A stretch of 64,000 bases of DNA from assembly GCA_012295275.1 (NCBI GenBank), contig CM022668.1, positions 5,332,001 through 5,396,000 of the forward strand, read 5' to 3'. The position numbers and the translations under genes are program-made. The notes below the pieces were generated by a model. It worked only from the letters and a program-made list of their open reading frames with translations, had not been told where the DNA came from and did not search any database. Shown here piece after piece: positions 8,563 to 62,175 of this stretch (position 1 is the first letter of the stretch; the number at the start of each line of letters is the position of its first letter). This DNA comes from Chrysomallon squamiferum. Taxonomy: Eukaryota; Animalia; Mollusca.

Positions 8563-8606
<44 letters not shown>

Positions 8607-17255: not shown

Positions 17256-20200
17256 ACAAGAACTGTAGATCTGAGACTAATAGATAAGAAAATATGATGA
17301 ACTTCATACGGTTGTTGAGTAAAATAGGTGCAGCATCATACTTTAAGCTAGTGAATAAACCAGTAAACTCTGTAAAACATCAGATGCAAAAAGCACCAAA
17401 GACTGTCAGAAGTGCAATCACGGTGAAAGCAAAGAATCTTTTTGGGGAACCAGGATAAAAAAAAAAAAAAAAGAGAAAAAAAACTGAAATTTAATTTGTA
17501 TCGTAACTTTATGTTGAAAAAATTCGATAAAAAATAATACTAATAATGTAGAAATATTCATGTAAGTGATCAGATTACATGTAATTTATTCTTTGAATCA
17601 AGGATTTCCATATTTTAACTTATCTTATTAGTTCTGTCAATGATTTCAACTTTTCTATTATTTATTTATTCCTTCAACAATTTCATCATTACTAATAAAC
17701 AAAATAATACCACAATAAAAAGGAAAATGATATATTATTAGAATACATTTATCTCCAATGAACTGATAAATATATATACAAAATATATTTACACTTTTTG
17801 TTTGCATTTTTGTGTGTGTGTGTGTGATTTTTATTTATGTAAAGTTCCACGTGCTGTTTTTATTCATGAAAATATTTTGGTTTCAGATCTTGAGATCAGC
17901 TTAAGAAAACGAAGTGCAGATGAAGCTAACAGAACAGGTAATTACATATTAAAACATTTCATTGCTTTTGGAGAAATTTATTTTTCTCATAATGAAGTGC
18001 AGAATAAGAAGATATTTGAGACTTTGTTGGTTTTTAAACAAAGTATAAATCTGTTTACTTCCAGTTGATTGTATTATTTGTTTTTGGAGGCCAGTCTTTT
18101 CTAATTATAATATACAAGAAAGTTTGTATTAACACTGCTCAAGTAAACTTACAGCAGTATAACATGAATTTAATGTGATCATAATACTGAAGTGCAATAT
18201 TGCTAGTCAATAACATTCCAATTTAATAATAAAGGTAATTTATTTCTAGTACTTTTTCATATGGCTTGAAGAAAATAGACCCAGTATCATACTTATTATC
18301 ATTATCATTGTGAACATTATTAATTACTGTTTTTTTTGAAACATGGGGAAAATTATACACCTACATTGTTTTATTCTTTGATATTTTATCATTATACTTA
18401 ATTATTAGCAAACAACTGACATCGCTAAACAAATAAAGAAATGACATTAAGCTGCATTTATTTTAGTTTTATGGCAGAACTTACTTTGAACTGAGTTACT
18501 TATTTATTAATCTTTAATTTTTAACATATTTTTTGTTGAAAATCTTCAGAAAGTGTTTATCGAGACGTCCAAGAACAGGATGCTGTCCCTTGCTACAAAA
18601 TGGATTCCAATCCCCGAGGTATGTTTTCAAATAAAGATTTTACTAATTTGGGATTAGCAAAAAGGGATCTTTTTTCTTTGGTCAGAAAGGTCTGTTAACA
18701 AAAGGTTCACAATATTCTGGTTTGAATGGGAAATAGCTTGGTTATAATTGGAAATATCCTTGTTCGACTGGGAGATAGACTCCAAAGTATGTTAACTAAA
18801 ATTGGATGTCCGTTGTATGAGGAATCAGTTTTATATCTTTTCAGATCCTGAAATCACCATGAGAGAAAAAAGAACACATAAAGCTAAGAGAACAGGTAAT
18901 TGTACATTTTATAAATTTTTCATTGCTTTTAGAGAAAACATTTTTCTAATAATGAAGTACAGAATAAGAAGATATTTGAGATTTTGTTACTTTTTGAATA
19001 GAAAGTATAAATCTGTTTACTTCCAATTAATATAATAATAGTAATAATAATGTAGAAATATTCAATAAAATGAAACCAGGTAAAAAAAAATAATAAAAAA
19101 ACTTTAAATGACTGAAGAATCATAAAACTGATAACTTAATTTGTATTGTAACATTATTTTGAAAATAAATTAATGTAGAAACTTTCCTGTAAATGATCAG
19201 ATGACATCAGTGTTTCTGTAATTTATTCTCAAGGATTTCCATTTTGTAACTTATTATTTTACTTCTATCAATTATTTCAACTTTTCTATTATTTATTATG
19301 CCTTCAACAATTTCAACATTACTAACAAATAAAATGGAAAATGTCAATATCTATTATTAATCTGTCTAATAATTTTTATTCGAATACTAAATTATTAGCA
19401 AACATTTATCACAATAAACTAATAAAATCAATAATTTATAAATTGAAATGCTTAATTTTACTTCCTTGTATTAATTAAGTCTTTTATTTTAATTTTTCTT
19501 CAGTGTATTGTTTGAAATGTGTAGATCTTTATATAAGTAGTGATTCCCTGGTTTCCTTTCTGAATTAAACAATTAATACTGTTATACCATTTTCACAATG
19601 TTTTCACTTACAAAGATCAGGGATTGTCTTTAGTTGTCTGGTTTTTTTCTTTCTTTTATTAATTATTTGTCTATTTATTAATTACATTTTGATTCATCCA
19701 TCATCATTATAATTATCATCATTGTCATGATTATATTATTATTATTATCATCATATTTGTTTATTTATGTTAAATTTTCTTAATTATTCATCACTATTTC
19801 ATTCATTTTTCATACTTTTCATACATTTTTTTCAGTTACACCTGATAGACTAATCGATGATATTGGTATTCAGTTCTTTGCCTATCGAACTCAGTTTCCC
19901 ATCTTAACACCACAAATAACTGATAGTTATCTGGCTATGCCAGCCAACCATTTCTCTGCAGTTTTGAATGAGCAATACCATATGGAAACAGATTTGTCCA
20001 AGGCCATGAAGAACTGTGAATTGACACAAACAGCAGCAGTACTGGAAACCATGTTTGGAATATAGCCATAAGGTAATGTTTTAGTTTGAAGTAAATCAGC
20101 ACTCTGAAAACACAAAACATTTGACAAATATTCTAGAGTTTAGAGTGAAAGGTTTAAGCTATTTCAGTGTCATTACCATTATCCCTCAAGATTTTATCAC

Positions 20201-20437
20201 AAATTTTCATTCACCACTGACTAAATTCCATTTCAAAATATTCACTTTAAATTGAAATGCTTAGTTTTACTTCCTTGTATTAATTAAGTCTTTTACTTTT
20301 ATTTTTTCTTCAGTATACTGTGTGAAATTTGTAGATCTATATATAAGTAGTGATTCCCTGGTTTCCTTTCTGAATTAAACAGTTAATACTGTTATATCAT
20401 TTTTGCATGTATACCAACAATGATTTATGTTTATATA

Positions 20438-20471
<34 letters not shown>

Positions 20472-21082
20472 AGCGAGTGTGTGTGTATCTGTGTGTGTGT
20501 GTGTGTGTGCGATTTTTATTGATTTCTAAAGTCTTATCTTCTGTTTATTTTTAATGAAAAGTTTTGGTTTCAGATCATGACATCAACACAAGAGAGCAAA
20601 GGACATATGAAGCTGACAGAATAGTTAATTTTCCATTTTATAAATTTTTCGTAGCTTTTTGACATTTTTTTTTCTAATAATGAAGATATTTGTGACTTTG
20701 TTACTTTTTAAACAACGTTTTCACTTACAAGGAACATTCTACTTCCAAAAATCAGCAATTTTCTTTCTTTTTTTTTGTTCTTTTTTCTGTTTGTCTATTT
20801 ATTTACTACATTTTGTCGTTTACTCATTCAATCATCATCATTATATTATATATTATTATTAGTAGTAGTAGTAGTTTTTATGAAATTTTATTTAATTATT
20901 TGTTACTTTGTTACTTTTTCGTATATGTTTTTTCATTTTAACGCATTTTTCGGAGAGTGAAACTAATTCAAAATCATCACCAAATTTACATTTTCTATGT
21001 TTACTTTTTTATGAAAATATTTTGGTTTCAGGTCCTGAGATCAACATGAGAGGGCAAAAGACACATAAGGCTGACAGAACAG
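17256..21082 (+). pseudogene. Scrambled caspase prodomain relic (copy B), no DEDs and no catalytic exons
   Basis: Exon-2 acceptor homolog at 17255 with short ORF 17294-17458; micro-exons 17887-17937, 18845-18895, 20574-20624 (donor lost), 21032-21082; linker exon 18550-18618; degenerate DD exon 19836-20072 with late stops; order differs from copy D. Confidence 0.7.
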
Positions 21083-21211
21083 GTAATTATACATTTTATA
21101 AATTTTTCATTTTGCTTTTGGAGAATATATTTTCTAATAAAGTAGTACAGAATAAGAAGATATTTCAGACTTTGTTATATTTTAAACAGAAAGTGTAAAT
21201 CTTTTACTTAG

Positions 21212-21251
<40 letters not shown>

Positions 21252-22303
21252 GAGGACAATCTTTTCTAATTACAGTATACGAGAAACACTGTAATACCAC
21301 AGGTCTAGTAAACTTATTAACTGATCTGTTAAAAAGTGTTGGGTTTGAAAGTGTTTTATTACTATACAAATGTTAAAATATTTAAATTCAAGAGTTAGCT
21401 TATCAAAATATTTTTAAATCAAACATTCGAACATCAATGGCCATTGTTTTGTTGTTCTTCTTCTTTTGTTGAAATCTGTCTTTTTAATCTTGTTATATAT
21501 TTTATATGAAATTTTTGTTTATACATTTGGTTGTGTTGGACATACAATGAAACTGCATTTAATGACTTCGTAACTTTACTGAAATGTATTTTAAAAATGT
21601 ATCAACACCAATGTGAATTAATTAAGTCAGTTTCAATCGATTGTTTTGACTGCTGGTTTATTTAAAACAATTTTACTTCAGAAATTAGTGCATGAAGAAA
21701 AAAAACATAATTCAAATAGACCTGTTAAGAATTGGATTTGAAAATATTATTATTACAATAAAAATGTTAAAATATTTAAATTCGAGAGTACAAAATATTT
21801 TTAAATCAAACATTCGAACATCAATACTAATATGAAGTAACAAAAATAATTCAAATAGAGCCACTGGTGAAAGCTTGGCTTCGAAAATATTCTTCTGTAG
21901 CAAAAAAAATCTAAAATAATCTATAACATGGAAAATTGCTTGTTATCTTAAAATAGTGTAAAATAATAATAATAGTAATTTAATAAATAAATACTGGATT
22001 TATGTAATAAACAACAGAATAATACAAATGAAGTACTTTTTGGACTCACTTCCATCTTCTAAAATCATATGACCTATCTTTTCTCTTATGCAGATAACTG
22101 TGTTTTTTTGGACATCGGGTGATGTTTAACATAATTATGTTTCTTTACGTTTGCCTAGTGTTAGAGTTTCTTTGTCTGTCTAGTTAGTGTCCGTGTTTCT
22201 ACATCATATGTCATTTCTGCAAGAAAACATTAGTTGTAATGTTCAAGCTCATTCCTAAGCTTCCCCTTTAATTTTCATACAATCCTAAAATTCATTTACT
22301 TAC

Positions 22304-24296
22304 TTTTCACCATATTCATTTAAAATTTCAGTCAGTTCTGTGATGTACCAGGATCCAGTTGATTTTGATCTGTACGCCACAAAACCTGGTACTGCGGCAT
22401 ATCCTATCAGCAAATCTGCTTCTTTGTTTCTTCATGTAGGTTTGTTTCTTCCTGTGGGTTTGTTTCTTCATGTAGGTTTGTTTCTTCATGCAGGTTTGTT
22501 TCTTCATGTGGGTTTGTTTCTTCATGTAGGTTTGTTTCTTCATGTAGGTTTCTTTCTTCATGTAGGTTTGTTTCTTCCTGTAGGTTTGCTTCTTGTTGTG
22601 GGATAGTTTCTTCCTGTGGGTTTGTTTCTTCATGTAGGTTTGTTTCTTCATGTAGGTTTGTTTCTTCTTGTAGGTTTGTTTCTTCATGTAGGTTTGTCGC
22701 TTCTTGTGGGTTGGTTTCTTCTTGTGGGTTTGTTTCTTGTTGTGGGTTTGTTTCTTGTTGTGGGTTTGTTTCTTCATGTAGGTTTGTTTCTTCATGTAGG
22801 TTTGTTTCTTCTTGTAGGTTTGTTTCTTCATGTAGGTTTGTCGCTTCTTGTGGGTTTGTTTCTTCTTGTGGGTTTGTTTCTTCCAGTGGGTTTGTTTCTT
22901 CCTGTAGGTTTGTTTCTTCCTGTGGGTTTGTTTCTTCGTGTAGGTTTGTTTCTTCATGTAGGTTTGTTTCTTCTTGTTGGTTTGTTTCTTCTTGTAGGTT
23001 TGTCGCTTCTTGTTGGTTAGTTTCTTCATGTGGGTTTGTTTTTTCTTGTGGGTTTGTTTCTTCTTGTAGGTTTGTCGCTTCTTGTTGGTTAGTTTCTTCA
23101 TGTGGGTTTGTTTTTTCTTGTGGGTTTGTTTCTTCTTGTTGGTTTGTTTCTTCTTGTAGGTTTGTTTCTTCATGTAGGTTTGTTTCTTCTTGTTGGTTTG
23201 TTTCTTCTTGTGGGTTTGTTTCTTCTTGTAGGTTTGTTTCTTCTTGTTGGTTTGTTTTTTTTCCTTGTGGGTTTTGTTTTTCCTTGTGGGTTTGTTTCTT
23301 CCTGTGGGTTTGTTTCTTCATGTAGGTTTGTTTCTTCTTGTAGGTTTGTTTCTTCTTGTGGGTTTGTTTCTTCTTCATGTAGGTTTGTTTCTTCTTGTAG
23401 GTTTTTTTGTTTCTTCTTGTAGGTTTGTTTCTTCTTGTGGGTTTGTTTTTCTTCATGTAGGTTTGTTTCTTCTTGTGGGTTTGTTTCTTCTTGTAGGTTT
23501 TTATTTCTTCTTGTGGGTTTGTTTCTTCATGTAGGTTTGTTTCTTCTTGTGGGTTTGTTTCTTCTTGTGGGTTTGTTTCTTCTTGTGGGTTTGTTTCTTC
23601 TTGTAGGTTTGTTTCTTCTTGTGGGTTTGTTTCTTCTTGTGGGTTTGTTTCTTCATGTAGGTTTGTTTCTTCTTGTAGGTTTGTTTCTTCTTGTAGGTTC
23701 GTTTCTTCTTGTAGGTTTGTTTCTTGTTGTGGGTTTGTTTCTTGTTGTGGGTTTGTTTCTTCATGTAAGTTTGTTCCTTCATGTAGGTTTGTTTCTTCCT
23801 GTGGGATAGTTTCTTCTTGTAGGTTTGTCGCTTCTTGTTGGTTTGTTTCTTCTTGTGGGATAGTTTGTTCCTGCCGGATAGTTTCTACCTGCAGATCCTC
23901 CCTGTTAATATCTGCTGTAAAATAAAATATCAAAACTCAAGTTCTGATATTTTAAAAACATTAATCTTTGTTGCAGGTGAACACAAACCCAAACAGATAT
24001 TTACAGTTATACAAATAATAAGTATTTTAGAGTGTATAAACACAAAAACTTTAACATTTTATCATTTGTGGACAATATCAGTAAGATTTTGTTTCAAACT
24101 TGTAGCAAACTGTTCATCCCCAAAAGATTGTTCTCATGTATTCAACAACAAGATGGCAATTTGCACATTATCAGGCCAAAAGAATAAGCTGTGCATAGCT
24201 AAGAACAATACCTATTCATGTATGTAGTTTTGAGAAATAATTATTAACTCCATTAGTGAATAATAATAATAATAATAACAATAGTAATAGTAATAC

Positions 24297-24358
<62 letters not shown>

Positions 24359-25784
24359 TGCCTATAATACATACCTGGTTGTTCTTCTTCACTCTGACAA
24401 GCCTCTATAAAAAAACAACTTTGGTTTCCCACTCATTGTTGGACATGACTCAGGTCTAAATAGTGCAGTCAATTCTCTGATCTTTACAGGCGAACCGTTA
24501 CATCCATATACCACACCTTCGTCTCCGTGTGATAAAATACAAACCACAACACATTCATAGACACTGTGATCAGACAAAGCCAAGCCCTTTACAGCTTCAA
24601 CCATGTCAGTGTCAGTCAAATTTTCTTTGTACTGGATGATGAACTGAAGATTCTCAAAAGTTTTTTTCAGCTTAACTACAAATGAAATTTATTTACATGT
24701 TTTTTAACTAGGTATGAATACTGATGTGTGTTAGTGTATGTGTAAGTTAGATTTGAACAAAAAAATATTATCTCTTTTATACACATTCTGAAAGGTGAAA
24801 AAATGGGATATAATTAATTATGTAAGTGAATACATCTCTCTACAAATATCTAAATATTGTATGAATTTTGTTTAAAAAACACTATGAATTATATATATAC
24901 ACACACACCTCATATACTTTCATTAATATTGCTTTTATTACAATTACTATTTTATTGTTATTTGTTGTTAGTATTAGTATTATTATTGTCATAATTATCA
25001 CTGTTATTGTTATTAATACTGTTATTTTTATTATTACTTTAGTTGTTGTTATTGTTACTGCTATTTTCTTTCAAAGTAAAACTTACCAGCATCTACATCA
25101 GTTCCCTTTCTTTCTTCCAACTTTTTACCTTCTGGCTTCTCTGGAAATGTGAGAAACTTTCTGTTGTTGATTATTAAACACATTCCTAGAATAAAACAGA
25201 GAAAAAACCACATATTAATTCAATGGAAATATAAAAATATATTTAAGGGAGACAGACAAAGACAAACAAAGAGACAGAATGAGGGAGAGATTCAGTGCTG
25301 TGAACGTGGAGAGCCCAGACTGGGTCTGTCTTTATGAATCACTCATCAAGATATAGTAGTGGAGTGAGAGCAGGGAAACATGACTTGTACACTGGGGAAG
25401 TCAAATCTCTGGTAGTGCAGGTCTGTGTAAGCAGTACTGAACAAACCCGTATAAGCATGATGTCAATAATAGTATCACAGTGTTAAAGGATATAAAAAGA
25501 GAGGCAAATTGATTCCTCATTCAATTGCCATCCTATTTTAGTTAACATACTTTGTAGTATATTTCCCAATCCAACCAGGATACTTTCCATTGCAACCAAG
25601 CTATTTCCCATTCAATCGAGAATATTGTGAATCTTTTGTTAACAGACCTTTCTGACCAAAGAAAAGAGATCCTTTTTTGCTAATCTCGAATTAGTAAAAT
25701 CTTTATTTGAACACATACCTTGAGGAATGGCATTCATTTTGTAGTAGTCAGCACTCTGCTCTTGGACACCTCGAAAATCACTTG
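22304..25784 (-). pseudogene. Inverted caspase copy C, catalytic exons only
   Basis: Exons 25784-25719, 25185-25087 (GMCLIINNRKF...RKGTDVDA), 24675-24375 (SHG; +1 in A7 run 24409-24415; EACQS at 24405-24391), 23914-22304 (repeat-expanded, frameshifted). No DED, DD or last exon found adjacent. Confidence 0.85.
22425..23870 (-). repeat. 18-bp coding minisatellite (roughly 80 units) encoding QEETN(L/P)
   Basis: Plus-strand unit approximately TTTGTTTCTTCTTGT(A/G)GG; lies inside the p10-start exon of copy C (ORF 22407-23933). Confidence 0.95.
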
Positions 25785-39846: not shown

Positions 39847-40230
39847 ATACAAAATAAAAATACAGAAAATTAGTTACCTGGGTAATATTAATTTTCAATT
39901 ATTTTATTATTATGATTTCTTCTTCATCATCTTCTTTAAAAAAAAAAATTATTATTATTTATTTATTTATTTATTTATTTAAGTTGTACTATTACTGTAA
40001 TTTGCTGTTATCGTTAGAAATATTTTTTATTAGGAAAAGTAAAATACTCAGAGTTTGTACTTGAAATATATGAAAAGAGAACATTTTGCTGTTGTGGTTG
40101 TTAGAACTTATCAATTTTATTTTCACATTTCATTTTTCAAATTTTATTTTATTTTTAATCATATATAATAGTTTGAACAATTTGTGTCTAAAATATTCAC
40201 TTTTGCAATCAACATAAATACCTTGATTTT

Positions 40231-40268
<38 letters not shown>

Positions 40269-40550
40269 CAACAACAACAACAACAACAGATGCCATTGAG
40301 AATTATTTAAAATTAAGCATAGTATTAACATATATATACTTAAAATTTACAGTTCACATAGTCCAGTACTTCAGTTATACATATCCCTTTCTCAAGTTAT
40401 GGAAAAACATTTTCAAAATGTTATTCATTTTCTTCAGGAGAATTACAAGAGTTGGGTACAATTCATTCCAATGTTACATTTTATTATTTACTTTTATGAT
40501 TATATCTATATCTATATCTATATCTATATCTATCTATATCTATCTATCTA

Positions 40551-40672
<122 letters not shown>

Positions 40673-40764
40673 CTTACATACATGTTAAACTTGCAGTTAA
40701 GAAAATAACCACACAAAACTGTATATGAAGGTATGTGTATGTGTGTGTATCTGTGTGTGACTGT

Positions 40765-40820
<56 letters not shown>

Positions 40821-42438
40821 TAATCAGAAGAACTAAATCCATGTCAGACAGAAGAAAAAAGTGGCAGACGGCAGATTCTTCTTATTTAAAAAGTTGGTAA
40901 CTGCCTAATTTTACTGGTTTTATTAATATCTGCATTCCTTCACCTGTTTGAATTTTTATGATTCTAAGACAATGGCCATTGTTTTGTTGTTATTCTTCTT
41001 CTTTTTTGTTTAAATCTGTCTTTTTGATCTTGTTATACATTTTATGTGCAATATTTTCTTTATACATTTGGTTGTGTTTGACACACAATGGAAACTGCAT
41101 TTAATGACTCTTGCTATCTTTACTGAAAATGATGTTAGAAATGTGTCAACTCTAAAGTGAATAAACTATATAGACTGCTTTGAGAGTTGGTTTATTTAAT
41201 GAGTTTTAATTCACAAATTAGTACATGAAGGAAACAATCAAATTCAAATAGATCTGCTAAGAATAAATTGAAAATATTATTATGACTATAAAAATATTTA
41301 AATATTTAAATTCAAGAGGTAGTTTCTCTAAAGCACTATTAATTCAAACATTTGAGCAAGAATGCTAATATGAAGTAAAAAAAATAATTCAAATTGATCT
41401 GTTAAAAAGTGTTGGGTTTGAAAGTCGTTTATTACTATACAAATGAGAAAATATTTAAATTCAAGAACTACTTTATCAAAATATTTTTAATTCAAACATT
41501 CGAACATCAATACTAATATGAATGAACAAAAATAATTCAAATACAGCCACTTGTGAAAGCTTGGTTTCCAAAATATTCTAGTGTAGCATAAAATGTCTAA
41601 AATAATCTATAACTTTGAAAATTGTTTGTTATCTTAAAATAGTGTAAAAATAATAATAATTTAATAAATAAATGCTGGATTTATGTAATAAACAAAATAA
41701 TAATACAAACGAAGTATTTTAAATTGTGGCATTGTGATAACAAAATTAACTTCAGCACATCAAAATCATCAGTTATATATCTAAAAGTGCTCGGTTTGAA
41801 ACTAGACACTCACAAGAAAATGTGTCTAACTGGTTTAAATTAGTTCGAATGCAAATTAATGGACTGATTTAAATAAAAAATCATTTAAAACAAAATGTAA
41901 AGAAAATCAAAGTGAACTCCTTAATGCTTGTTGCATATTAATTTATGTTAGTGTGAATGCAAATAAAATAAGCTGATTTAAATAAATCATTGTTAAAAGA
42001 AACTGCATCACGAAATTCAAAATGAATGCATAAATGTTTATTAAAATGTTTATTAAAATGTTTTAGCTTTGTGGGTTGATTGATGTAATAGAAAGAGCAA
42101 CACAAAAACAAACAGAAGTAATAAATAAAAGCAAATTAATAATTGCAATAGTACATGTGTGCATTTTGTTGGTACGTGATAAATTTAGCAGGGATAATGG
42201 TAATGACACTGAAATAGTTTAAACTTTTCACTCTGAATTCTAGAATATTTGCCAAATGTTTTGTGTTTTCAGAGTGATGATCCACTTCAAACTAACACAT
42301 TACTTTCTCGTATATTGTAATTAAAAATTTTTAAAAAGCAGATGGAATTTTAACATAAATAAAAATCTCTCTCACACGCACTCATACACACACAGACACA
42401 AACAAACACACATAGGCATGCACATACAAACACACTTT

Positions 42439-43715
42439 ACATGGTTTCCAGATCTGCTGCTAGTTGTGTCATTTAGCAGTTCCTCATGACCTTGGACAAA
42501 TCTGTTACTATTTTTTTGGTATCATCAGTGCTATTTTTCATCTTTTGAAGCCATTGTTTGATCATGTCATGATTTCTATTTTGATCTGGTTTGCAATACT
42601 TATTTAAAATATTTTGCTTTTCGTTAGGCATATTCAACTGGGTTCCAAGGGCAAAGAACTGTGAGGTTGATAAATGCAGAGCGATATCACGGGTTTGTCC
42701 ATCAAATATAGATGAAAAAAGAGTTAATATAAAATAAATATGAAAAAGGAATGCAACAATAACAAATAATTATGAAATTTAATAAATAAACAAATATAAT
42801 AATATATAATGATGATGATTCTATTGATAATCAATGAATGAATAACGAACAAAATGTAATAAATAAACAGACAAATAAAAAAATAACTGAGTTTTGTAAG
42901 TAGAATATCCTGTGTAAGTAAAAACATTGTTAGTATGTCAAAAAGTATAACAGTATTAATTATTTAATTCAGAAACAAAACCTGGGAAACCTACTTAAAT
43001 ACAGACCTACAAATTAAACACAGTAAATAGAAGAAAAAAATCATTTTGTAAGCATATTTAATTATTAATGATGTTATCAGTTTATTGGTGATAAATATAT
43101 ATGCTAATAATATAGTATTTGAATAAAATTAGACAGTAATTATCGATCCTGACATCTTCCATTTTATTGTGGAATTATTAAGTTTATACGGAAATGTTGA
43201 AATTCTCAATGGAAGAATTAACAATTAACCAAAAAGTTGAAATCATTGATAGAACTAATAAGATATGTTAAAATACAGAAATCCTTGATTCAAAGAATAA
43301 ATTACTGAAACGATGATGTAATCTGATCATTTACAGGAATATTTCTACATTAATTTATTTTCAAAATAAAGTTACAATACAAATTAAGTTATTAGGTTTA
43401 TGGCTGTTACTAAGGTTTCTGGCTGTTACTTTTTTTACCTGGTTTGAAAGTAGGACTTTGTGTAGGCTGCTGATATTTTCCTTGCATCTTTTGTATTGGA
43501 AGGCGTACTGGTTGTTCAGGTTTATTTCCACTCTTCATCAATGCTGACTGATCTGCTGTAGACATTGTACTAACACCCTTAGACTGCTTGTTCGCTATTT
43601 GTATGTCATGATCGTCAAGCAATACACCATTCTTCTTGTCCTCTTGATCTGTACCCAAATTGTCAGCCATTTTCATATGCTTATTTTTCGCTGAGTCAGT
43701 AGCCTCGTTTACCAT
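42439..43715 (-). pseudogene. Mirror copy of the chimeric mini-gene in the left palindrome arm
   Basis: ORF 43410-43715 (exon end 43439) and DD exon ~42711-42439, whose 3' end is interrupted by an insertion at ~42309-42438. Confidence 0.7.
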
Positions 43716-44093
43716 CTCCTTTTAACAACCAAGTCTCGAAAAGGAGTGACTGGAACGTGAAAATAAGACACCCTTTCTCGTCAAAAATGAAGTAAATATA
43801 TCTGATATATCTGGATATAGAAAGATTAGAAATTGTGATTGAAAATATAGTAAACAGTATAAATTAGATTTTTCTCAAACGAGGCTACTGACTCAGCGAA
43901 GAATATGTCTGATGCAGACTGATACATAACAAACACCATATTTCTAAAATATATTGAAATTTGAATTTTGCTACACTTCAAACACGTATGCTTTTTTTAT
44001 AACAGTGAGCATGTTTCATACCTTAGAAATTTAAACTTTTATTGAAACTGCGAACTATTTGTTTATTATCAGTCGTCACGAGTGAATAAGCAT

Positions 44094-45350
44094 ATGAAAA
44101 TGGCTGACAATTTGGGTACAGATCAAGAGGACAAGAAGAATGGTGTATTGCTTGACGATCATGACATACAAATAGCGAACAAGCAGTCTAAGGGTGTTAG
44201 TACAATGTCTACAGCAGATCAGTCAGCATTGATGAAGAGTGGAAATAAACCTGAACAACCAGTACGCCTTCCAATACAAAAGATGCAAGGAAAATATCAG
44301 CAGCCTACACAAAGTCCTACTTTCAAACCAGGTAAAAAAAGTAACAGCCAGAAACCTTAGTAACAGCCATAAACCTAATAACTTAATTTGTATTCTAACT
44401 TTATTTTGAAAATAAATTAATGTAGAAATATTCCTGTAAATGATCAGATTACATCATCGTTTCAGTAATTAATTCTTTGGAATCAAGGATTTCTGTATTT
44501 TAGCATATCTTATTAGTTCTGTCAATGATTTCAACTTTTTGGTTAATTGTTAATTCTTCCATTGAGAATTTCAACATTTCCGTATAAACTTAATAATTCC
44601 ACAATAAAATGGAAGATGTCAGGATCGATAATTACTGTCTAATTTTATTCAAATACTATATTATTAGCATATATATTTATCACCAATAAACTGATAACGT
44701 CATTAATAATTAAATATGCTTACAAAATGATTTTTTTCTTCTATTTACTGTGTTTAATTTGTAGGTCTGTATTTAAGTAGGTTTCCCAGGTTTTGTTTCT
44801 GAATTAAATAATTAATACTGTTATACTTTTTGACATACTAACAATGTTTTTACTTACACAGGATATTCTACTTACAAAACTCAGTTATTTTTTTATTTGT
44901 CTGTTTATTTATTACATTTTGTTCGTTATTCATTCATTGATTATCAATAGAATCATCATCATTATATATTATTATATTTGTTTATTTATTAAATTTCATA
45001 ATTATTTGTTATTGTTGCATTCCTTTTTCATATTTATTTTATATTAACTCTTTTTTCATCTATATTTGATGGACAAACCCGTGATATCGCTCTGCATTTA
45101 TCAACCTCACAGTTCTTTGCCCTTGGAACCCAGTTGAATATGCCTAACGAAAAGCAAAATATTTTAAATAAGTATTGCAAACCAGATCAAAATAGAAATC
45201 ATGACATGATCAAACAATGGCTTCAAAAGATGAAAAATAGCACTGATGATACCAAAAAAATAGTAACAGATTTGTCCAAGGTCATGAGGAACTGCTAAAT
45301 GACACAACTAGCAGCAGATCTGGAAACCATGTTTAAAATACAGCCAGAAA
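44094..45350 (+). pseudogene. Chimeric DED-less mini-gene: novel N-terminus, caspase exon-2 tail, DD exon
   Basis: MKMADNLGTDQEDKK... joins at ~44178 to sequence matching copy A ~4010-4186; donor GT 44332; DD exon 45060-45350 has acceptor AG>AT and a TAA at ~45296. Confidence 0.7.
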
Positions 45351-46832
45351 GTAATGTGTTAGTTTGAAGTGGATCATCACTCTGAAAACACAAAACATTT
45401 GGCAAATATTCTAGAATTCAGAGTGAAAAGTTTAAACTATTTCAGTGTCATTACCGTTATCCCTGCTAAATTTATCACGTACCAACAAAATGCACACATG
45501 TACTATTGCAATTATTAATTTGCTTTTATTTATTACTTCTGTTTGTTTTTGTGTTGCTCTTTCTATTACATCAATCAACCCACAAAGCTAAAACATTTTA
45601 ATAAACATTTATGCATTCATTTTGAATTTCGTGATGCAGTTTCTTTTAACAATGATTTATTTAAATCAGCTTATTTTATTTGCATTCACACTAACATAAA
45701 TTAATATGCAACAAGCATTAAGGAGTTCACTTTGATTTTCTTTACATTTTGTTTTAAATGATTTTTTATTTAAATCAGTCCATTAATTTGCATTCGAACT
45801 AACTTAAACCAGTTAGACATATTTTCTTGTGAGTGTCTAGTTTCAAACCGAACACTTTTAGATATATAACTGATGATTTTGATGTGCTGAAGTTAATTTT
45901 GTTATCACAATGCCACAATTTAAAATACTTCGTTTGTATTATTATTTTGTTTATTACATAAATCCAGCATTTATTTATTAAATTATTATTATTTTTACAC
46001 TATTTTAAGATAACAAGCAATTTTCCAAGTTATAGATTATTTTAGACATTTTATGCTACACTAGAATATTTTGGAAACCAAGCTTTCACAAGTGGCTGTA
46101 TTTGAATTATTTTTGTTCATTCATATTAGTATTGATGTTCGAATGTTTGAATTAAAAATATTTTGATAAAGTAGTTCTTGAATTTAAATATTTTCTCATT
46201 TGTATAGTAATAAACGACTTTCAAACCCAACACTTTTTAACAGATCAATTTGAATTATTTTTTTTACTTCATATTAGCATTCTTGCTCAAATGTTTGAAT
46301 TAATAGTGCTTTAGAGAAACTACCTCTTGAATTTAAATATTTAAATATTTTTATAGTCATAATAATATTTTCAATTTATTCTTAGCAGATCTATTTGAAT
46401 TTGATTGTTTCCTTCATGTACTAATTTGTGAATTAAAACTCTTTTAAATAAACCAACTCTCAAAGCAGTCTATATAGTTTATTCACTTTAGAGTTGACAC
46501 ATTTCTAACATCATTTTCAGTAAAGATAGCAAGAGTCATTAAATGCAGTTTCCATTGTGTGTCAAACACAACTTTTTTTTTCAAATCTTATAAAGAAAAT
46601 ATTGCACATAAAATGTATAACAAGATCAAAAAGACAGATTTAAACAAAAAAGAAGAAGAATAACAACAAAACAATGGCCATTGTCTTAGAATCATAAAAA
46701 TTCAAACAGGTGAAGGAATGCAGATATTAATAAAACCAGTAAAATTAGGCAGTTACCAACTTTTTAAATAAGAAGAATCTGCCGTCTGCCACTTTTTTCT
46801 TCTGTCTGACATGGATTTAGTTCTTCTGATTA

Positions 46833-46890
<58 letters not shown>

Positions 46891-46982
46891 ACAGTCACAC
46901 ACAGATACACACACATACACATACCTTCATATACAGTTTTGTGTGGTTATTTTCTTAACTGCAAGTTTAACATGTATGTAAG

Positions 46983-47088
<106 letters not shown>

Positions 47089-47863
47089 GATAGATAGATA
47101 GATAGATAGAGAGATAGATAGATAGATATAGATAGATATAGATATAGATATAATCATAAAAGTAAATAATAAAATGTAACATTGGAATGAATTGTACCCA
47201 ACTCTTGTAATTCTCCTGAAGAAAATGAATAACATTTTGAAAATGTTTTTCCATAACTTGAGAAAGGGATATGTATAACTGAAGTACTGGACTATGTGAA
47301 CTGTAAATTTTAAGTATATATATGTTAATACTATGCTTAATTTTAAATAATTCTCAATGGCATCTGTTGTTGTTGTTGTTGTTGTTATTATTATTATTAT
47401 TATTATTATTAAAATCAAGGTATTTATGTTGATTGCAAAAATAAATATTTTAGACACAAAATGTTCAAACTATTATATATGATTAAAAATAAAATAAAAT
47501 TTGAAAAATGAAATGTGAAAATAAAATTGATAAGTTCTAACAACCACAACAGCAAAATGTTCTCTTTTCATATATTTCAAGTACAAACTGAGTATTTTAC
47601 TTTTCCTAATTAAAAAAATTTCTAACGATAACAGCAAATTACAGTAATAGTACAACTTAAATAAATAAATAAAGTAGTGGTAGCTGAGGAAGAAGCAGTA
47701 AAATAGTAGTACAAGTTGTAGCAGCAGGAGCAGTAGTAGTAATCGTAATAATAGCAGTCGTAGAATAAACAGATGAAGCTGTATTAACTACAGTAGTAGT
47801 AAAAAGCTGCAGGAACATCTACAGCTGAAGTAGTAGCAGAAGTAAATAAAAAAATATATTTAC

Positions 47864-49780
<1,917 letters not shown>

Positions 49781-55259: not shown

Positions 55260-56040
55260 ATGTCTAACGCTTTCCGAATGGATGCAGAGGACGAGGGAGG
55301 TGTTGATTTCAGATGTGTACTACTTGAAGTTGATGGTGACCTGCACAAGGAGGACATTGATTCACTGAAATTCTTGTGTCGCGAGTTTGCTCCATTGAGT
55401 CGACTGGAACATATAAAGAACGGAACTGAACTGTTCAGCCTTCTTGAGAAAACAGGCAAACTGAAAGAAACAAATAAGTGGGTTTTGGCTGAGATGTTAA
55501 AACGTATTATGAGGTTAGATCTGGTGGAAACATTGCAGGTTGATGAGAAAGAACTGGATACATATCTATCCATACATGGATCAAATTTTTCACCATACAG
55601 AAATCTACTTCTTGATCTTTCTGATGAAATCGGTGAAGAGGACTTGCATAAGTTGTTGTTTTTTTCTGGAGACATTCCTAGAGCGAAGCAACAAAAGATT
55701 CACAGTGTGCTGGATTTTTTTCTCATTCTTGAACAGATGAAAAAGATTAGTCCTGAAAATGTTGACATTTTGGAAGGTTCTCTTAAGCAGATAGGAAGAT
55801 TAGATTTAGTAGAAAATATAAAGAACTTCAAACAGAAGATGAATGTAAATATAACCTCTACAGTGGATCAGTCAGCTGTGATTACATTTGGAAGGACCAG
55901 TACACCTGAAGAACAAGTACAACATCCAAAACAAAAGATACAAGTAGTCTATCCCAGTGAGCCAACAAAGCCTGGTAGGACAACAGCGAGGGTTGTACCA
56001 GAGAATCCTCAACCAACACAAAGTCCTCCTTCAGAACCAG
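55260..56040 (+). CDS. Copy D tandem death-effector-domain exon
   Basis: Two repeats with LKFLC/LLFFS and RxDL motifs (IMRLDL, IGRLDL), then a P/T/Q-rich linker; donor GT 56041. Confidence 0.9.
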
Positions 56041-57769
56041 GTAAAAAACCCAAAACAACCCCAAAACCTTCTTAAATGACCCAAGAATCATGTATTGTAA
56101 ATTTTTATTTTCACAAAAAATAAAAAAAATAAAAAAAATAAAAGCAGTGTAATAATATTCCTGTAAAGGATCAGATTACATCGGTGTTTCTATCATTTAT
56201 TCTCAAGGATTTCCATATTTTAACTTATCTTATTAGTTCTATCAATTGTTTCAACTTTTCTGTTATTTATTATGCCTTCAACAATTTCATCATTACTAAT
56301 AAACAAAATAATACCACAATAAAATGGAAAATGTCAACATCTATAATTAATCAGTGTAATTACTTTTATTCAAATACTTTATTATTAGCAAACATTTATC
56401 ACCAGTAAACTAATAAAATCAATAATATATAAATATATATTTATAGTTTTTGTTTGCATTTCAAAATATTCACTTTAAATTGAAATGCTTACTTTTACTT
56501 CCTTTTATTAATTAAGTTTCTTATTTTTATTTTTTCTTCAGTATCATGTGTGAAATTTGTAGATCTGTATTTAAGTAGTGATTCCCTGGTTTCTTTTCTG
56601 AATTAAACAATTAATCCTTTTGACATGTATACCAACAATGTTTTCATTTACATAGAACATTCTACTTACAAAGATCAGGGACTGTCTTTAGTTATCTCTT
56701 TCTTTTTTTTTTCTTTCTTTTATTAATTATTTGTCTATTTATCGATTACATTTTGTTCATTATTCATTCATTGATTCATTCATCATGATTATAATTATTA
56801 TCATTCGATTCATTGTCATCATTGTATTATTATTATTTTTATCATCATTTTATGTTTGTTAAATTTCTTAATTATTCATTATTGTTTGATTCATTTCTCA
56901 TATATATGTTGTTGTTTTTTTTTCAGCTATACCAGATACACTAATCCGTGATATTGCTCTGCATATATCAAACACACAGTTCTTTGCCCTTGGAACCCAG
57001 TTGAATATTCCTGACTTAACACTACAACATTTGAGTCAGTATCACCATTCACCTCTCGACAGAAATACTAACATGATCAAACTGTGGCTCCAAACGATAA
57101 ATAGCACTCATGATAGAAAAAAGATAATAACAGATTTGTCCAAGGCCATGAGGAACTGTGAAATGACACAAATAGCAGCAATGTTGGAAAACATTTTGGA
57201 AGGTAATGTTTTAGTTTGAAGTAAAACCAGCACACTGAAAACAGGGAATGTTTGTCAAATATTCTAGAGTTCAGAGAGTGAAAAGTTTAAGCTATTTCAG
57301 TGTCATTACCATTATTCCTCAAGAGTTTATCACAAAATTTCATTGACCTATGACTAAATGTTTTTTTTTTTATGATTTTACATCTCCTGTACATTTTATG
57401 TTTATATATCATTGTGTGTGTCTGTGTATATATGTGTGTGATTTTTACTGATTTCTAAAGTTTTATCTTCTGTTTATTTTTAATGAAAATCTTTGGTTTC
57501 AGATCATGACGTCAACACAAGAGAGCAAAGGACACATGAAGCTGACATAATAGGTAATTTTCCATTTTATAAATTATTCGTACCTTTGGGATATTTTTTT
57601 CTAATAATGAAGATATTTGTGACTTTGTTACTTTTTAAACAATGTTTTCACTTACAAGGAATATTCTAATTCCAAAAATCAGCAATTTTCTTTATTTTTC
57701 TTTTTTCTGTTTGTCTATTTATTTATTACATTTTGTTCTTTACTCATTCATTCATCATCATCATCATCA

Positions 57770-57804
<35 letters not shown>

Positions 57805-60800
57805 TTGTTTATTTTTTTAACTTTTCTTAATTATTCGTAATTTCAATACTTTTTCATATATTTGTTTTTCATTTTGACTCTTTTTTCAGAGAATCATTAC
57901 CAAAATTCTGTTTTTATTTTTTATGAAAATATTTTGTTTTCAGATCCTGAGATCAGCAGTAGAGAACCAGTAGCAGATGAAGCTACCACAACAGGTAAAT
58001 ATTCATTTTATTAATTTTAAATTGGTTTTGGACAAGATTTTTTTCTGATAAAGATCAGAATAAAAAGATATTTGTGACTTTGTTACTTTTTAAACAGTCA
58101 GTATAAATGTGTTTACATCCAGTTAATTGTTTTATTAGTCTAATTACTTTTATTCAAATACTATGTTATTAGCAAACATTTATCCCAGTAAACTGATAAA
58201 ATCAATAATTTATAAATATGTATACAAAATGTATTTAAACTATTTGTTTGCATTTGTGTGAGTGTTTGTGTGTGTGTGTGTAATTTTTATTTATGTCGAA
58301 AGTTCCATCTGCTGTTTTTATTTTTTATGAAAATATGTTTCAGACCCTGAGATCAGCATAAGACAACAAAGGACACATGAAGCTAACAGAATAGGTAATT
58401 ATACATTTTATAGATTTTTCATTGCTTTTAGAGAAATTTGTTTTTCTAACAATCAAGTACAGAACAAGAACATATTTCAGATTTTGTTGCTTTTTAAATA
58501 GAAAGTATAAATCTGTTTACTTCCAATTGATTGTATTATTTGTTTTTGGAGGCCAGACTTTTCTAATTACAACATACGAGAAACTTTGTATTACCACAGG
58601 TCAAGTAAACTTAAATATTTAACATGAATTTAATCTGACCATAATATTGACATGCAATATTGCTAGTCAACAACGCTTGAATTTAATAATAAAGGTAATT
58701 TATTTCTGGTACTTTTTCCATATGGCTTGAAGAAATAAAGTGACCTTAGATCTGGTACCATCTTGTATTTTATTTCTATTTTTTGAAAGGACAACAAGAA
58801 ATTATTCACCTGCATAGTTCTACTCTTTGTTATTTTATCATTTTACCTTATTATTAGCAAATAAGTGACATCGCAAAAGAAATAAAGAAATCAAATTAAG
58901 CTGCATATATTTTAATTTTATAGCAGAACTTACTCTGAGTTGTGTTACTTATTATTTAATTTTTAATTTTTCAATTATTTATTAAAAATCACCAGCAAAC
59001 CAGATTCGAAACGTCGTACAGCAGTTAGAAAGAAATGATGTAGATCAGGGTCCTGTCCCCTACTACAAAATGGATGCTAATCCTCGAGGTATATTTTCAA
59101 ATAAATATTTTACTAATTTGGGATCAGCAGGACATTTTTAATAACAGTATTAGATTTGGTACAAACAATATAGGTGAGAGGTATGTGTCACACATACATA
59201 TTCATTCATTTTTTTTTTATGCCTTTGTGATTTGTTTGGTGCTGTTTATGCAGACCTGCACTGACAGAGATCTGAATTCTCCAGTGTGTAAGTCATGTTT
59301 CCCTGCTCTTACTCCAGCTAGTGTATTCTGATGAGTGATTCATAAACACAAACACAGTCTGGGCTCTCCACATTCGTATCACTGTATCTGTCCCTCATTC
59401 TTTCTCTCTGTTTCTCTTTGTCTGGCTCCCTTAAATATATGTTGTGTTTTTTATCTGTTTTATTCTAGGAATATGTTTAATAATCAACAATAGAGATTTT
59501 AAGAAGGATCGAGTGAAGCCAGAAGCTAAAGATTTGCCAAATAGAGAGGGAACTGATGTAGATGCTGGTAAGTTTTACTTTGAAAGAGAATAGTAGTAGC
59601 AACAACAAGAACTATAGAACTTTCAGAATATAAATTTATGTCATAAACGAAAACAATGATCAAACACCATCTATTACAAAAATAATAAAAAAATTTGGTT
59701 CAGACCCAACATACACATACATACACATCAATATTACATACCTAGTTTTACAATATGTAAACAAATTTTATTTCTAGTTAAGCTGAAAGAAACTTTTGAG
59801 AAACTTCACTTCATCATCCAAGATGAAGAAAATTTGTCTGACACTGACATGGTTCAGACTGTAAATCAGCTGGCTTTGTCTGATCACAGTGACTATGACT
59901 GTTTTGTGTGTTGTATTTTGTCACACGGAGACGAAGGTGTGATATACGGATGTAACGGTTTGCCTGTACAGATCAGAGACTTGACTGAACCATTTAGAGC
60001 TCAGTCATGTCTAACACTGAGTGGGAAACCAAAGTTGTTTTTCATGCAGGCTTGTCAGGGGAAGGAAAAACAACTAGGTATGTATGGCAGCTGTTAAAAA
60101 TAATTTCTCAAAACTACATATATGATTTTTTGTTGTATTTAGTCACATACATGTTATACTGTGTGGCCTAAATCTGTGCCAATTGTCATCTTGTTGTTTA
60201 ATACATGAGAAAGACATTTTTGTGTAAAAGAATTTGCTACAAGTTTATACTAACATTGTCCACAAATGATAACATTTTTGTGTTTATTTGCTCTAAAATA
60301 CTTCATCTATAGTTACAAATATCTGTATGGATTTTGGTATGAGTTTGTATGCAATTAGGATTAATATTTTTAAAATATCAGAACTTGATTTCTGATACAT
60401 CTATTTACAGGATATAATGCACAGATGGATGGTGATACTGACATGGATGTTCAGAAGGAAGAAACAAACCCAGAAGAAGGAACAAACCCACAGGCAGAAA
60501 CAAACCAATATGAAGCAGATTTTCTGATAGGATATGCCACAGTACCAGGTTTTGTGTCTTACAGATCAAGATCACATGGATCCTGGTACATCACAAAACT
60601 GACAGAAATTTTAAATAAATATGCTAAAAAGTAAGTAAATGAATTTTATAATTGTATAAAATCTTAAGGGGAAACTTAAGAATCAGCTTGAAGATTACAA
60701 CTAATGTATTCTTGCAGAAATGAGATATAATGCAGAAACATGGACACAAACAAGACAGACAAAGAACAAACTAACAACCAGACAAAATAATTGTTAAGCA

Positions 60801-61799
60801 TCACATCATGACCAAAAACCAACTCACCTGTATAAGATAAAACAAAGGTCGTAGATATCACTGATCAGGTTAGAAGCAGAACACAACAGCTGACCGATGA
60901 TGATGACATTTTGAAAAGAAACAAATATTTTTTAATATATATTGAGTCAGTCTCAGTCTTGTGATATCACTGAAATGTTGTCTTGAGGATTATTTTATTA
61001 GTATAAAAAAGAGGATCATCTACCTGTTCAGGAGATGAAGATATGCAGTTTACAGATTGCTTTTATGTTCACAATGTTGACTGCCTGTTTGGAAATAAAT
61101 TGCAGGTCAAACACCTTTTAGTACTGTTTATGTTTAAATATATACAACTGTTGCATTATTAAAATAAAAACATAAAAAAACTGGTTTAAGAAGTTTGGGT
61201 ACCACTGTTTGCTGTGACTTTGTCTAAGTGTTTTGTGATGTCACATGTTGTTAACTAATACTGTTAGCTGGATGATGATTTTTCTAGGCAGGGCAAATTG
61301 ATTACTGTAATAAAACTTTCAATCAGTAAATCACGAAATTTAGTAGAATTCATGCACATTATATATAATATATTTAATGTACATATGTTAGAAACATCTG
61401 TTACATATGACTGTATTTTAGTTGGAACCTCTGAAGGAATGTTCCTACATTATCATGTTAACTAAAATGTACAAGAAATCATTTCGGTTCTCCTTTCTGA
61501 TCTTTTAAGAAAGTAATAAAAACATAATACAGCTGGGACTTACATACAGATCTGTTTTATACATATATATATTTAATTTTTGTTTTTTTAACCGTATGTA
61601 TATGTTACACGAATATTACTATTTATTACCTTTTAAAATTTATTTTCATTTTATACATTTTTTCAGAGAGGACATCCTCAGTTTGCTGTTGTTAGTAAAT
61701 AATGAAGTATGTAAAGAAAACACCATGATGAATGATGGTACATACAAGCAGTCCCCAGCACCATTGTACACACTGAGGAAGAAGCTGATATTCAAGTGA
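55260..61799 (+). CDS. CASP8: Intact caspase-8-like initiator caspase, copy D (DED-DED-DD-linker-p20-p10), about 684 aa
   Basis: Exons 55260-56040, 56927-57202, 57503-57553, 57944-57994, 58344-58394, 58996-59088, 59469-59567, 59778-60077, 60411-60630, 61667-61799 sum to 2055 nt with no internal stop seen. SHG 59921-59929, QACQG 60047-60061, S1 arginines (NREGTD, VSYRS), C-terminus KQSPAPLYTLRKKLIF. The symbol is a family-level call; orthology not tested. Confidence 0.9.
56927..57202 (+). CDS. Copy D death-domain-like exon (92 codons)
   Basis: AIPDTLIRDIALHISNTQFFALGTQLNIPDLTLQHL...NMIKLWLQT...ITDLSKAMRNCEMTQIAAMLE matches the DD hydrophobic pattern (LG..L.I, M+..W, L..A+..C) by eye. Confidence 0.75.
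57503..58394 (+). repeat. Three tandem 51-nt micro-exons of copy D
   Basis: 57503-57553 DHDVNTREQRTHEADII, 57944-57994 DPEISSREPVADEATTT, 58344-58394 DPEISIRQQRTHEANRI; each tttcag|...G|gtaa. Confidence 0.75.
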
Positions 61800-62175
61800 A
61801 GCAGAACTTTTTAAACTGTATTTATTTTTCAGAGAGGACATCCTCAGTTTGCTCTTGTTAGTAAATAATGAAGTATGTAAAGGAAACGCCACGATGAATG
61901 ATGGTACATACAAGCAGTCTCCAGCACCATTGTCCACACTGAGGAAGAAGCTGATATTCAAGAGAAGCAGAACTTTTCATTTGTATAGTTATTTTAAACT
62001 GTATATATATTTCAGAGAGGACATCCACGATTTGCTGCTGTTAGTAAATAACAAAGTATGTAAAAGAAATGTCATAATGATGAAGCAGTCCCCAGCACTG
62101 TTCAGTATGTTGAGGAAGAAGCTGATATTCAAGCGAAGGATTTATTTATTTGCAAGTGATGTTTTCAAGAATTAA
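61667..62175 (+). repeat. Triplicated terminal exon of copy D
   Basis: Copies start at 61667, 61833 and 62016, each after ttcag|AGAGGACATCC. Copy 1 stops at 61799; copy 2 has TGA>AGA and reads into copy 3; copy 3 has TGA>CGA and stops at 62175. Confidence 0.85.

What the first reader, a model, noticed from the sequence alone, without database searches (positions are those of the whole stretch)
55260..61799. Initiator caspase with a death-domain-like module between tandem DEDs and the protease (DED-DED-DD-caspase)
Seen: an open, phase-compatible 276-nt exon with a DD-like pattern lies between the DED exon and the catalytic exons, and relatives occur in several copies in the window. Established: canonical caspase-8/10 is DED-DED-caspase and needs the separate adaptor FADD (DED-DD). 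Inference: this protein may combine adaptor and protease and bind DD receptors or adaptors directly. I cannot say from the sequence whether this architecture has already been described.
Basis: partly seen in the sequence, partly recalled or inferred. Interest (0 to 1): 0.85.

Follow-up and report, generated by a model that had tools for sequence, protein, structure and literature searches.

The report
Snail caspase-8 with extra death domain
This snail gene encodes a cell-death protease (caspase-8 type) with an extra death domain that likely lets it dock directly onto death-receptor complexes; the same design is already described in a mussel and an oyster, and here it proves common across snails and bivalves.

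Summary
Ten GT-AG exons give an intact 684-aa DED-DED-DD-caspase. The 276-nt exon folds as a death domain (pLDDT 93; Z 13-14 to PIDD, ankyrin and FADD DDs). RNA contigs join the DED exon to a DD exon in 3 of 3 runs laid, but they are 96-98% identical and end differently, so this copy's downstream junction was not seen.

The architecture is not new. Vogeler 2021 describes it for bivalve caspase-8B (Mc8B, Cg8B) and cites work showing that the Mc8B DD binds human Fas and FADD. The closest relative, in the gastropod Gigantopelta aegis, has the same DD (43% identical). A profile seeded from the window exon finds the DD in 54 of 120 homologues, all named ones molluscs; precomputed Pfam marks 13.

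What this adds: the design extends to gastropods, and the DD sits on a symmetric exon that is skipped, lost or duplicated. One origin for snails and bivalves is neither shown nor rejected. The scan's earlier notes held no match. Verdict: new member of a known kind.

The parts
55260..56040 (+). Exon 1: start codon, DED1, DED2 and a Pro/Thr-rich linker; ends in phase 1
   Evidence: Pfam DED x2, E 1.1e-39; best PDB sequence hits cFLIP and caspase-8 tandem DEDs; RxDL motifs at residues 85 and 180
56927..57202 (+). Exon 2: death domain (residues 262-352), symmetric phase 1-1, 276 nt
   Evidence: the DED-to-DD junction is seen in RNA contigs of 96-98% identical transcripts
57503..57553 (+). 51-nt linker exon, copy 1 of 3 tandem duplicates
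   Evidence: AG/GT ends, phase 1-1, 73-81% similar to the other two with flanks; use not tested
57944..57994 (+). 51-nt linker exon, copy 2
   Evidence: use not tested
58344..58394 (+). 51-nt linker exon, copy 3
   Evidence: use not tested
58996..59088 (+). Exon with the prodomain/p20 boundary (Asp418, Asp420: predicted release sites) and the start of p20
   Evidence: cleavage sites are inferred
59469..59567 (+). p20 exon with the S1-pocket arginine (REG, residue 460)
   Evidence: aligns with the human caspase-8 RNG through P0003
59778..60077 (+). Catalytic exon: SHG (His517) and QACQG (Cys560)
   Evidence: Pfam Peptidase_C14 E 3.5e-26; motif positions
60411..60630 (+). Intersubunit linker (Asp574/576/578/580, short 18-nt repeat) and first part of p10 (SYRS, GSW)
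   Evidence: Pfam E 5.5e-13
61667..61799 (+). Terminal p10 exon with stop codon; two further tandem copies follow at 61833 and 62016
   Evidence: p10 is 69/84 identical to G. aegis P0003
3439..10395 (+). Broken paralogue with DED exon, two tandem DD exons (about 4625-4911 and 5304-5585) and caspase exons
   Evidence: Stop in DED1, frameshift in the first DD exon, frameshift in the catalytic exon
17860..21094 (+). Scattered paralogous linker exons and a degenerate DD exon (about 19836-20072, internal deletions, stop)
22292..25747 (-). Broken paralogue, catalytic half; frameshift just before the QACxG motif; intersubunit linker expanded to about 79 copies of an 18-nt unit
42439..45351 (.). Inverted pair (99.5% identical over 1248 nt) of a partial DED-linker exon plus a DD exon with an internal stop and no AG at the usual acceptor

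Best explanation
This is an intact gastropod caspase-8-family gene with a death domain between its tandem DEDs and its protease, the layout of bivalve caspase-8B, and the death domain likely acts as a second docking module for DD-bearing receptors or adaptors. Shown here: exon structure, domain order, death-domain fold, intact His/Cys and S1 arginines, and DED-to-DD splicing in near-identical transcripts. Inferred by analogy with vertebrate caspase-8 (established knowledge) and with Mc8B (as reported by Vogeler 2021): (1) the zymogen is recruited to an oligomerised DD scaffold (death receptor or FADD DD) through its own DD, in addition to DED-DED contact with FADD; (2) the tandem DEDs then chain further zymogens; (3) proximity drives dimerisation and cleavage at aspartates in the intersubunit linker and at the prodomain boundary; (4) the enzyme cleaves effector caspases or feeds NF-kB signalling. 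The DD exon is symmetric, so skipping or losing it would give a canonical DED-DED caspase. Both forms exist among relatives.
For: Gene model. Fold: AlphaFold with a 44-row alignment, pLDDT 93.0, pTM 0.83; VIA Z 14.0 PIDD DD (rmsd 1.5, 87 aligned), 13.3 ankyrin-G DD (1.7, 86), 13.0 FADD DD (1.7, 86); the best CARD and DED rows score Z 9.4 and 9.2. RNA: the DED-exon end is joined to the DD-exon start in X1, X2 and X3, 3 of 3 RNA runs laid, one study. Homologues: G. aegis P0003 has the same layout and groups with the window protein at 100/99. P0054 is ADB80146, which is Mc8B of Vogeler's table, and carries the DD at the same place. DD found in 17 of 28 named gastropod, 22 of 30 named bivalve, 15 of 28 unnamed, 0 of 1 chiton and 0 of 33 named non-mollusc proteins; 0 of 510 shuffled linkers hit. 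52 of 55 DD-bearing rows keep both QACQG and S/THG. Binding precedent: Vogeler 2021 section 10. Skipping: Haliotis rufescens isoforms X1 (636 aa) and X2 (540 aa) differ only by the 96-aa DD.
Against: No binding partner was tested, and the binding claim for Mc8B is second-hand, heterologous (human Fas and FADD) and from a paper I could not open. The DD is poorly conserved: 16-22% identity to other gastropod DDs apart from G. aegis, and 6-24% to bivalve DDs; the conserved columns are mostly core residues, which does not point to one fixed partner. The RNA contigs leave the window sequence at 57180 and carry the longer family-type exon end, so they come from another allele or a sister paralogue; 57202^57503 was not seen. 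Differences between these transcripts and the window DD are mostly amino-acid changing (2 of 3, 5 of 8 and 5 of 7 codons; no stops); small numbers, compatible with relaxed or diversifying selection. The trees do not join gastropod and bivalve DD caspases with support.
Confidence: 0.6

Rival explanations
1. The DD would serve non-death signalling or restraint: it binds RIPK-, MyD88/IRAK- or PIDD-type DD scaffolds to drive NF-kB, or acts as a decoy or autoinhibitory module, while killing still runs through FADD and the DEDs.
For: PIDD, ankyrin and FADD DDs tie in the fold search, within 1 Z unit, and the RIPK1 DD follows at 12.1. FADD is retained in gastropods. Vogeler 2021 reports NF-kB activation by an oyster caspase-8 (Ch8A, a DD-less type) and no induction of Cg8B by Vibrio alginolyticus.
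Against: The only reported binding data point to Fas and FADD. FADD DD is the top Foldseek hit (E 2.1e-3) and the top, non-significant, sequence hit (E 0.64).
Confidence: 0.25
2. The DD would be real by descent but nearly dispensable in this lineage, and this copy a young paralogue in a birth-and-death cluster, little expressed or on its way to decay.
For: Every other copy in the window is broken. G. aegis has three DD-less close paralogues (P0002, P0004, P0050). The RNA seen does not match this copy's exon end, and its differences are mostly non-silent.
Against: All ten exons keep frame and splice sites. The shortened exon end is a net 12 nt and keeps phase. A contig of run X5 carries the window-type end running into the intron (346 nt, 8 differences), so it is not private to this assembly. 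The fold is confidently predicted, and the DD is kept in most gastropod and bivalve relatives.
Confidence: 0.12
3. Gastropods and bivalves would have gained their DD exons independently, making this a convergent look-alike of caspase-8B, not a member.
For: In the best tree the gastropod and bivalve DD caspases are separated by DD-less rows (weak support). A bivalve-only DD profile scores the window DD at 15.6 bits, not above generic Pfam Death (21.5 bits).
Against: The AU test does not reject one clade (p 0.284, 15 against 13 rows). The DD lies at the same place, and cross-profiles find the DD region in most members of the other class and not in the non-mollusc rows scored. Vogeler 2021 reports the oyster DD on a single exon too.
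Confidence: 0.15

Closest known systems
Bivalve caspase-8B: Mc8B (Mytilus californianus, ADB80146 = P0054) and Cg8B (Crassostrea gigas, AKP95634), Vogeler et al. 2021, PMC7836458
   Same: Two DEDs, then a DD, then a caspase-8-type protease; DD on its own exon (stated for the oyster gene).
   Different: Gastropod, not bivalve; DD only about 10-16% identical to Mc8B and the oyster protein; shorter linkers (684 against 862 aa); both DEDs lie on one exon here, whereas Vogeler reports one exon per DED in oyster; orthology not resolved by the trees.
Gigantopelta aegis LOC121387773 (XP_041374913, P0003), 'uncharacterized' in RefSeq
   Same: Same architecture; DEDs 103/179, DD 39/89, p20 93/148, p10 69/84 identical; sister to the window protein at 100/99.
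   Different: No triplicated 51-nt linker segment and no repeat in the intersubunit linker; longer DD-exon end. A database prediction, not a studied protein.
Human caspase-8 with FADD (canonical death-inducing signalling complex)
   Same: Tandem DEDs with RxDL motifs, QACQG, His/Cys dyad; caspase-8 is the best PDB sequence match of P0003 (E 5.3e-72).
   Different: Human caspase-8 has no DD and depends on FADD (established knowledge).
cFLIP (CFLAR)
   Same: The tandem DEDs score slightly better against cFLIP (E 4e-18) than against caspase-8 (E 3.3e-15).
   Different: cFLIP lacks the catalytic cysteine (established knowledge); this protein has His517 and Cys560.

Membership tests
Caspase-8/10 (DED initiator caspases) | Two N-terminal DEDs | tested here: met
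   Pfam DED, 2 stretches, E 1.1e-39
Caspase-8/10 (DED initiator caspases) | Caspase domain with His/Cys dyad, QACQG and S1 arginines | tested here: met
   SHG 516, QACQG 558, REG 460, SYRS 617; Pfam C14
Caspase-8/10 (DED initiator caspases) | Asp-specific protease activity and activation on a FADD/DED scaffold | not testable with these tools
   Needs biochemistry
Death domain (DD subfamily of the death-fold superfamily) | Six-helix death fold closer to DDs than to CARD, DED or PYD | tested here: met
   pLDDT 93; the top nine VIA rows are DDs (Z 14.0-9.6), best CARD 9.4, best DED 9.2
Death domain (DD subfamily of the death-fold superfamily) | Pfam Death PF00531 above the curated cut-off | tested here: inconclusive
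   21.5 bits against 22.6 for the window exon; its G. aegis counterpart passes at 25.0
Death domain (DD subfamily of the death-fold superfamily) | Homotypic DD-DD binding | not tested
   No receptor or FADD sequence of this organism was held; no complex job was run
Mollusc caspase-8B type (DED-DED-DD-caspase) | DD between DED2 and p20 | tested here: met
Mollusc caspase-8B type (DED-DED-DD-caspase) | DD exon included in the mRNA | tested here: inconclusive
   5' junction seen in 3 of 3 RNA runs, in 96-98% identical transcripts with another exon end; the 3' junction of this copy not seen
Mollusc caspase-8B type (DED-DED-DD-caspase) | Groups with Mc8B and Cg8B by phylogeny | tested here: inconclusive
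   Bivalve DD clade 97/93; union with gastropods unsupported but not rejected, p-AU 0.284; no caspase-8A rows were identified in my set
cFLIP-like pseudocaspase | Loss of the catalytic cysteine | tested here: not met
   QACQG intact

The most novel reading that the evidence does not exclude
A death-domain exon entered caspase-8 once, in the common ancestor of snails and bivalves, and works as a symmetric cassette: including it gives a caspase that can fire at death receptors without FADD, and skipping or losing it gives the canonical FADD-dependent enzyme. Most copies are missed because the domain falls under the Pfam cut-off (13 of 120 marked, 54 of 120 found). The same DD also sits in limpet CARD-DD-caspases whose protease groups with this family.
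Probability: 0.25. Interest if true: 0.5.

Novelty: new member of a known kind. Interest (0 to 1): 0.22.

Why it matters
For the architecture itself, little: it is in print for two bivalve proteins. The useful additions are its range and its modularity. It reaches gastropods (17 of 28 named proteins), is mostly unannotated, and sits on a skippable exon with DD-less sister isoforms and paralogues. That gives natural with/without-DD pairs for asking whether an initiator caspase can be wired to death receptors without FADD, a question Vogeler 2021 leaves open.

Tried and rejected
No whole genome is held for this window, so FADD, death receptors and the likely template of the RNA contigs could not be sought in the same assembly.

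Searching with the DD exon alone was nearly blind: 1 hit among 1.84 billion representatives (P0001, E 6.2e-5) and none among longer proteins (46 candidates). Relatives were reached through the DED and caspase parts. The ESM Atlas returned only ordinary caspase-8 clusters. The single-sequence model was weaker (pLDDT 72, best Z 10.5). Foldseek gave no match at E <= 0.001 for either model.

Origin of the DD from FADD: FADD is the top but non-significant sequence hit (E 0.64), P0001 prefers PIDD (E 0.031), and the fold scores tie; not decidable. Trees: the 102-row tree finished only as a quick tree (18 rows left out beforehand as redundant vertebrate, multi-caspase or oddly bounded rows, 1 dropped as short); the 42-row and 28-row careful trees have unresolved bases.

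Rejected: chance ORF or assembly artefact (homologue, RNA junction, X5 contig); cFLIP-like pseudo-enzyme (Cys intact); CARD, DED or PYD identity of the exon; FADD replacement (FADD is present in gastropods). No complex prediction was run, as no partner sequence was held. Literature: the string 'DED-DED-DD' with caspase-8 gave 0 papers; six other searches showed no listing on a gastropod DD-bearing caspase-8, but most subscription papers are not in the library.

Full report
Observation. The window is AT-rich animal DNA (24-36% GC per 2 kb). Ten exons between 55260 and 61799 have AG/GT ends and join to a 684-aa protein with one terminal stop; dropping the 276-nt exon 56927-57202 keeps the frame. 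Pfam gives two DEDs in exon 1 (E 1.1e-39), Peptidase_C14 in the catalytic exons, and Death for the 276-nt exon at 21.5 bits, just under the 22.6 cut-off. His517, Cys560 (QACQG) and both S1 arginines are present.

The exon is a death domain. A single-sequence model gave six helices at pLDDT 72. With a 44-row alignment of homologues it reached pLDDT 93.0, pTM 0.83. Against 48,161 solved chains the best matches were PIDD DD (Z 14.0, rmsd 1.5, 87 aligned), ankyrin-G DD (13.3, 1.7, 86) and FADD DD (13.0, 1.7, 86); the best CARD scored 9.4 and the best DED 9.2. The tool warns that helical bundles can reach Z near 13 by arrangement alone, but here the top nine rows are all DDs and cover the whole domain. 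Foldseek ranked FADD DD first, E 2.1e-3, with nothing at E <= 0.001.

Splicing. Five public runs hold part of the locus; I laid four of them (RNA runs X1, X2, X3 of one study, and X5 of unrecorded kind) on 56905-57345 only. In all three RNA runs a contig covers 56924-57180, preceded by letters matching the end of the DED exon, so the DED-to-DD junction exists in RNA-library contigs. These contigs differ from the window at 5, 11 and 10 of 257 letters. They leave the window sequence at 57180 with the longer exon end seen in the window's paralogues and resembling that of G. aegis. They therefore come from another allele or a sister copy, and 57202^57503 was not seen. An X5 contig spans 56949-57294 with the window-type end and the intron (8 differences), so that end is not private to this assembly. 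Of the codons that differ between RNA contigs and window, 2 of 3, 5 of 8 and 5 of 7 change the residue and none makes a stop.

Relatives. The closest proteins are from the gastropod Gigantopelta aegis. P0003 has DED, Death and C14, and its DD is 39/90 identical to the window exon. P0002 is 518/572 identical to P0003 and lacks the DD block. A search with P0003 residues 285-675 gave 1347 hits at E <= 1e-30, of which I examined the 120 listed. I iterated a profile seeded only with the window exon over the stretches between the last DED and the caspase domain; 102 of the 121 proteins (window protein included) had a stretch over 60 aa and were searched. It converged on 54 homologues; 0 of 510 shuffled linkers hit. 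Final scores of members are circular. By group: 17 of 28 named gastropod, 22 of 30 named bivalve, 15 of 28 unnamed, 0 of 1 chiton and 0 of 33 named non-mollusc proteins. 47 of the 54 have two or more DEDs. Precomputed Pfam marks Death in only 13 of the 120. The count is a floor: Pomacea P0014 scores 12.2 bits in the expected place with a gastropod-only profile. The set is the top 120 by similarity, so it does not give the full range.

Already described. Vogeler et al. 2021 (PMC7836458; passages, all of section 10 and supplement hits seen) name a bivalve caspase-8B group, Cg8B and Mc8B, with two DEDs and a DD. They state that the Mc8B DD binds the DDs of human Fas and FADD, citing Sakamaki et al. 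2014, which I could not open, and that the effect of these prodomain variants is unclear. P0054 in my set is ADB80146, their Mc8B. PMC11463336 (passages) finds FADD in gastropods and bivalves; the passages shown do not mention a DD in DED caspases. PMC8878197 (passages) reports a scallop DD-caspase; PMC10967218 and PMC9389742 (passages) added nothing decisive. Supplements of these four were not read and may list more DD-bearing caspases. I found no paper on a gastropod member in seven searches (listings only).

Phylogeny. On DED plus caspase columns, DD excluded (28 chosen rows, 445 columns), the window protein is sister to G. aegis P0003 (100/99) and the bivalve DD caspases form a clade (97/93), but the base is unresolved. 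In the best tree the two groups are separated by DD-less rows with weak support; holding all 15 DD rows together is not rejected (p-AU 0.284). Cross-profiles find the DD of the other class in most members, but weakly (window 15.6 bits with a bivalve-only profile). A single origin is the simpler reading and is not shown.

The DD is modular. Haliotis rufescens RefSeq isoforms X1 and X2 differ only by the 96-aa DD; these are database models. G. aegis has three DD-less close paralogues. A broken copy in this window has two DD exons in tandem. Three Patella proteins are CARD-DD-caspases whose protease groups with Patella DED-DED-DD caspases.

Surroundings. The window is a birth-and-death cluster: one intact gene and several broken copies with stops or frameshifts, an inverted pair of DD exons, three tandem 51-nt linker exons, three tandem terminal exons, and an intersubunit linker expanded to about 79 units of 18 nt in one broken copy. 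Some frameshifts could be assembly errors; this was not tested.

Mechanism. Shown: structure of the gene, fold, catalytic residues, 5' junction in near-identical transcripts. Inferred from vertebrate caspase-8 (established knowledge) and the second-hand Mc8B result: the DD docks the zymogen on a receptor or FADD DD scaffold, the DEDs chain further zymogens, and dimerisation and cleavage at linker aspartates (574-580; 418/420) activate it. I give this 0.6. Rivals are a signalling or inhibitory role for the DD (0.25) and a dispensable DD in a fading copy (0.12); independent gain in snails and bivalves (0.15) is a separate question of origin.

Verdict. A real feature, correctly read, but a new gastropod member of a described kind. 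Interest 0.22. The scan's earlier notes held no finding on this architecture.

Noticed in passing
window 22423-23856 (- strand): The intersubunit-linker exon of a broken caspase paralogue holds about 79 copies of an 18-nt unit, open for 509 codons; the intact gene has only two or three such units.
   Followed up: partly
window 61667-62172: Three tandem copies of the terminal p10 exon, each with an AG acceptor; copies 2 and 3 read on past the usual stop, so alternative C-termini are possible.
   Followed up: partly
window 3439-10395: Broken paralogue with two DD exons in tandem (DED-DED-DD-DD-caspase layout); stop in DED1 and two frameshifts.
   Followed up: partly
P0040, P0049, P0063 (Patella): CARD-DD-caspases whose protease domain groups with Patella DED-DED-DD caspases: a likely prodomain swap that kept the DD. 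Not searched for in the literature.
   Followed up: partly
P0084 and P0088 (Haliotis rufescens): Two RefSeq isoforms of one gene differ exactly by the 96-aa DD; Pfam does not detect this DD.
   Followed up: yes
window 56925-57038, runs X1 and X3: RNA contigs of a variant DD exon that skips 53 letters with one letter between, which shifts the frame; likely a transcribed broken paralogue.
   Followed up: no
window 48540-49139 (- strand): An exon of a GH18 chitinase-family gene (Pfam E 4.1e-28); its neighbouring exons were not traced.
   Followed up: partly
window 33244-39047 (- strand): Six near-tandem copies, most about 980 nt apart, of the exon that encodes the start of p20 with its flanks.
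   Followed up: no
window 39966-47639: Nested inverted duplication: 2.3-kb arms at 97% and 1.25-kb inner arms at 99.5%; may be recent or an assembly effect.
   Followed up: no
P0086, P0121 (Potamilus) and P0068 (Dreissena): Bivalve caspase-8-like proteins with Pfam PF01661 or PF04598 in place of DEDs; the names macro domain and gasdermin for these accessions are recalled, not from a call.
   Followed up: no
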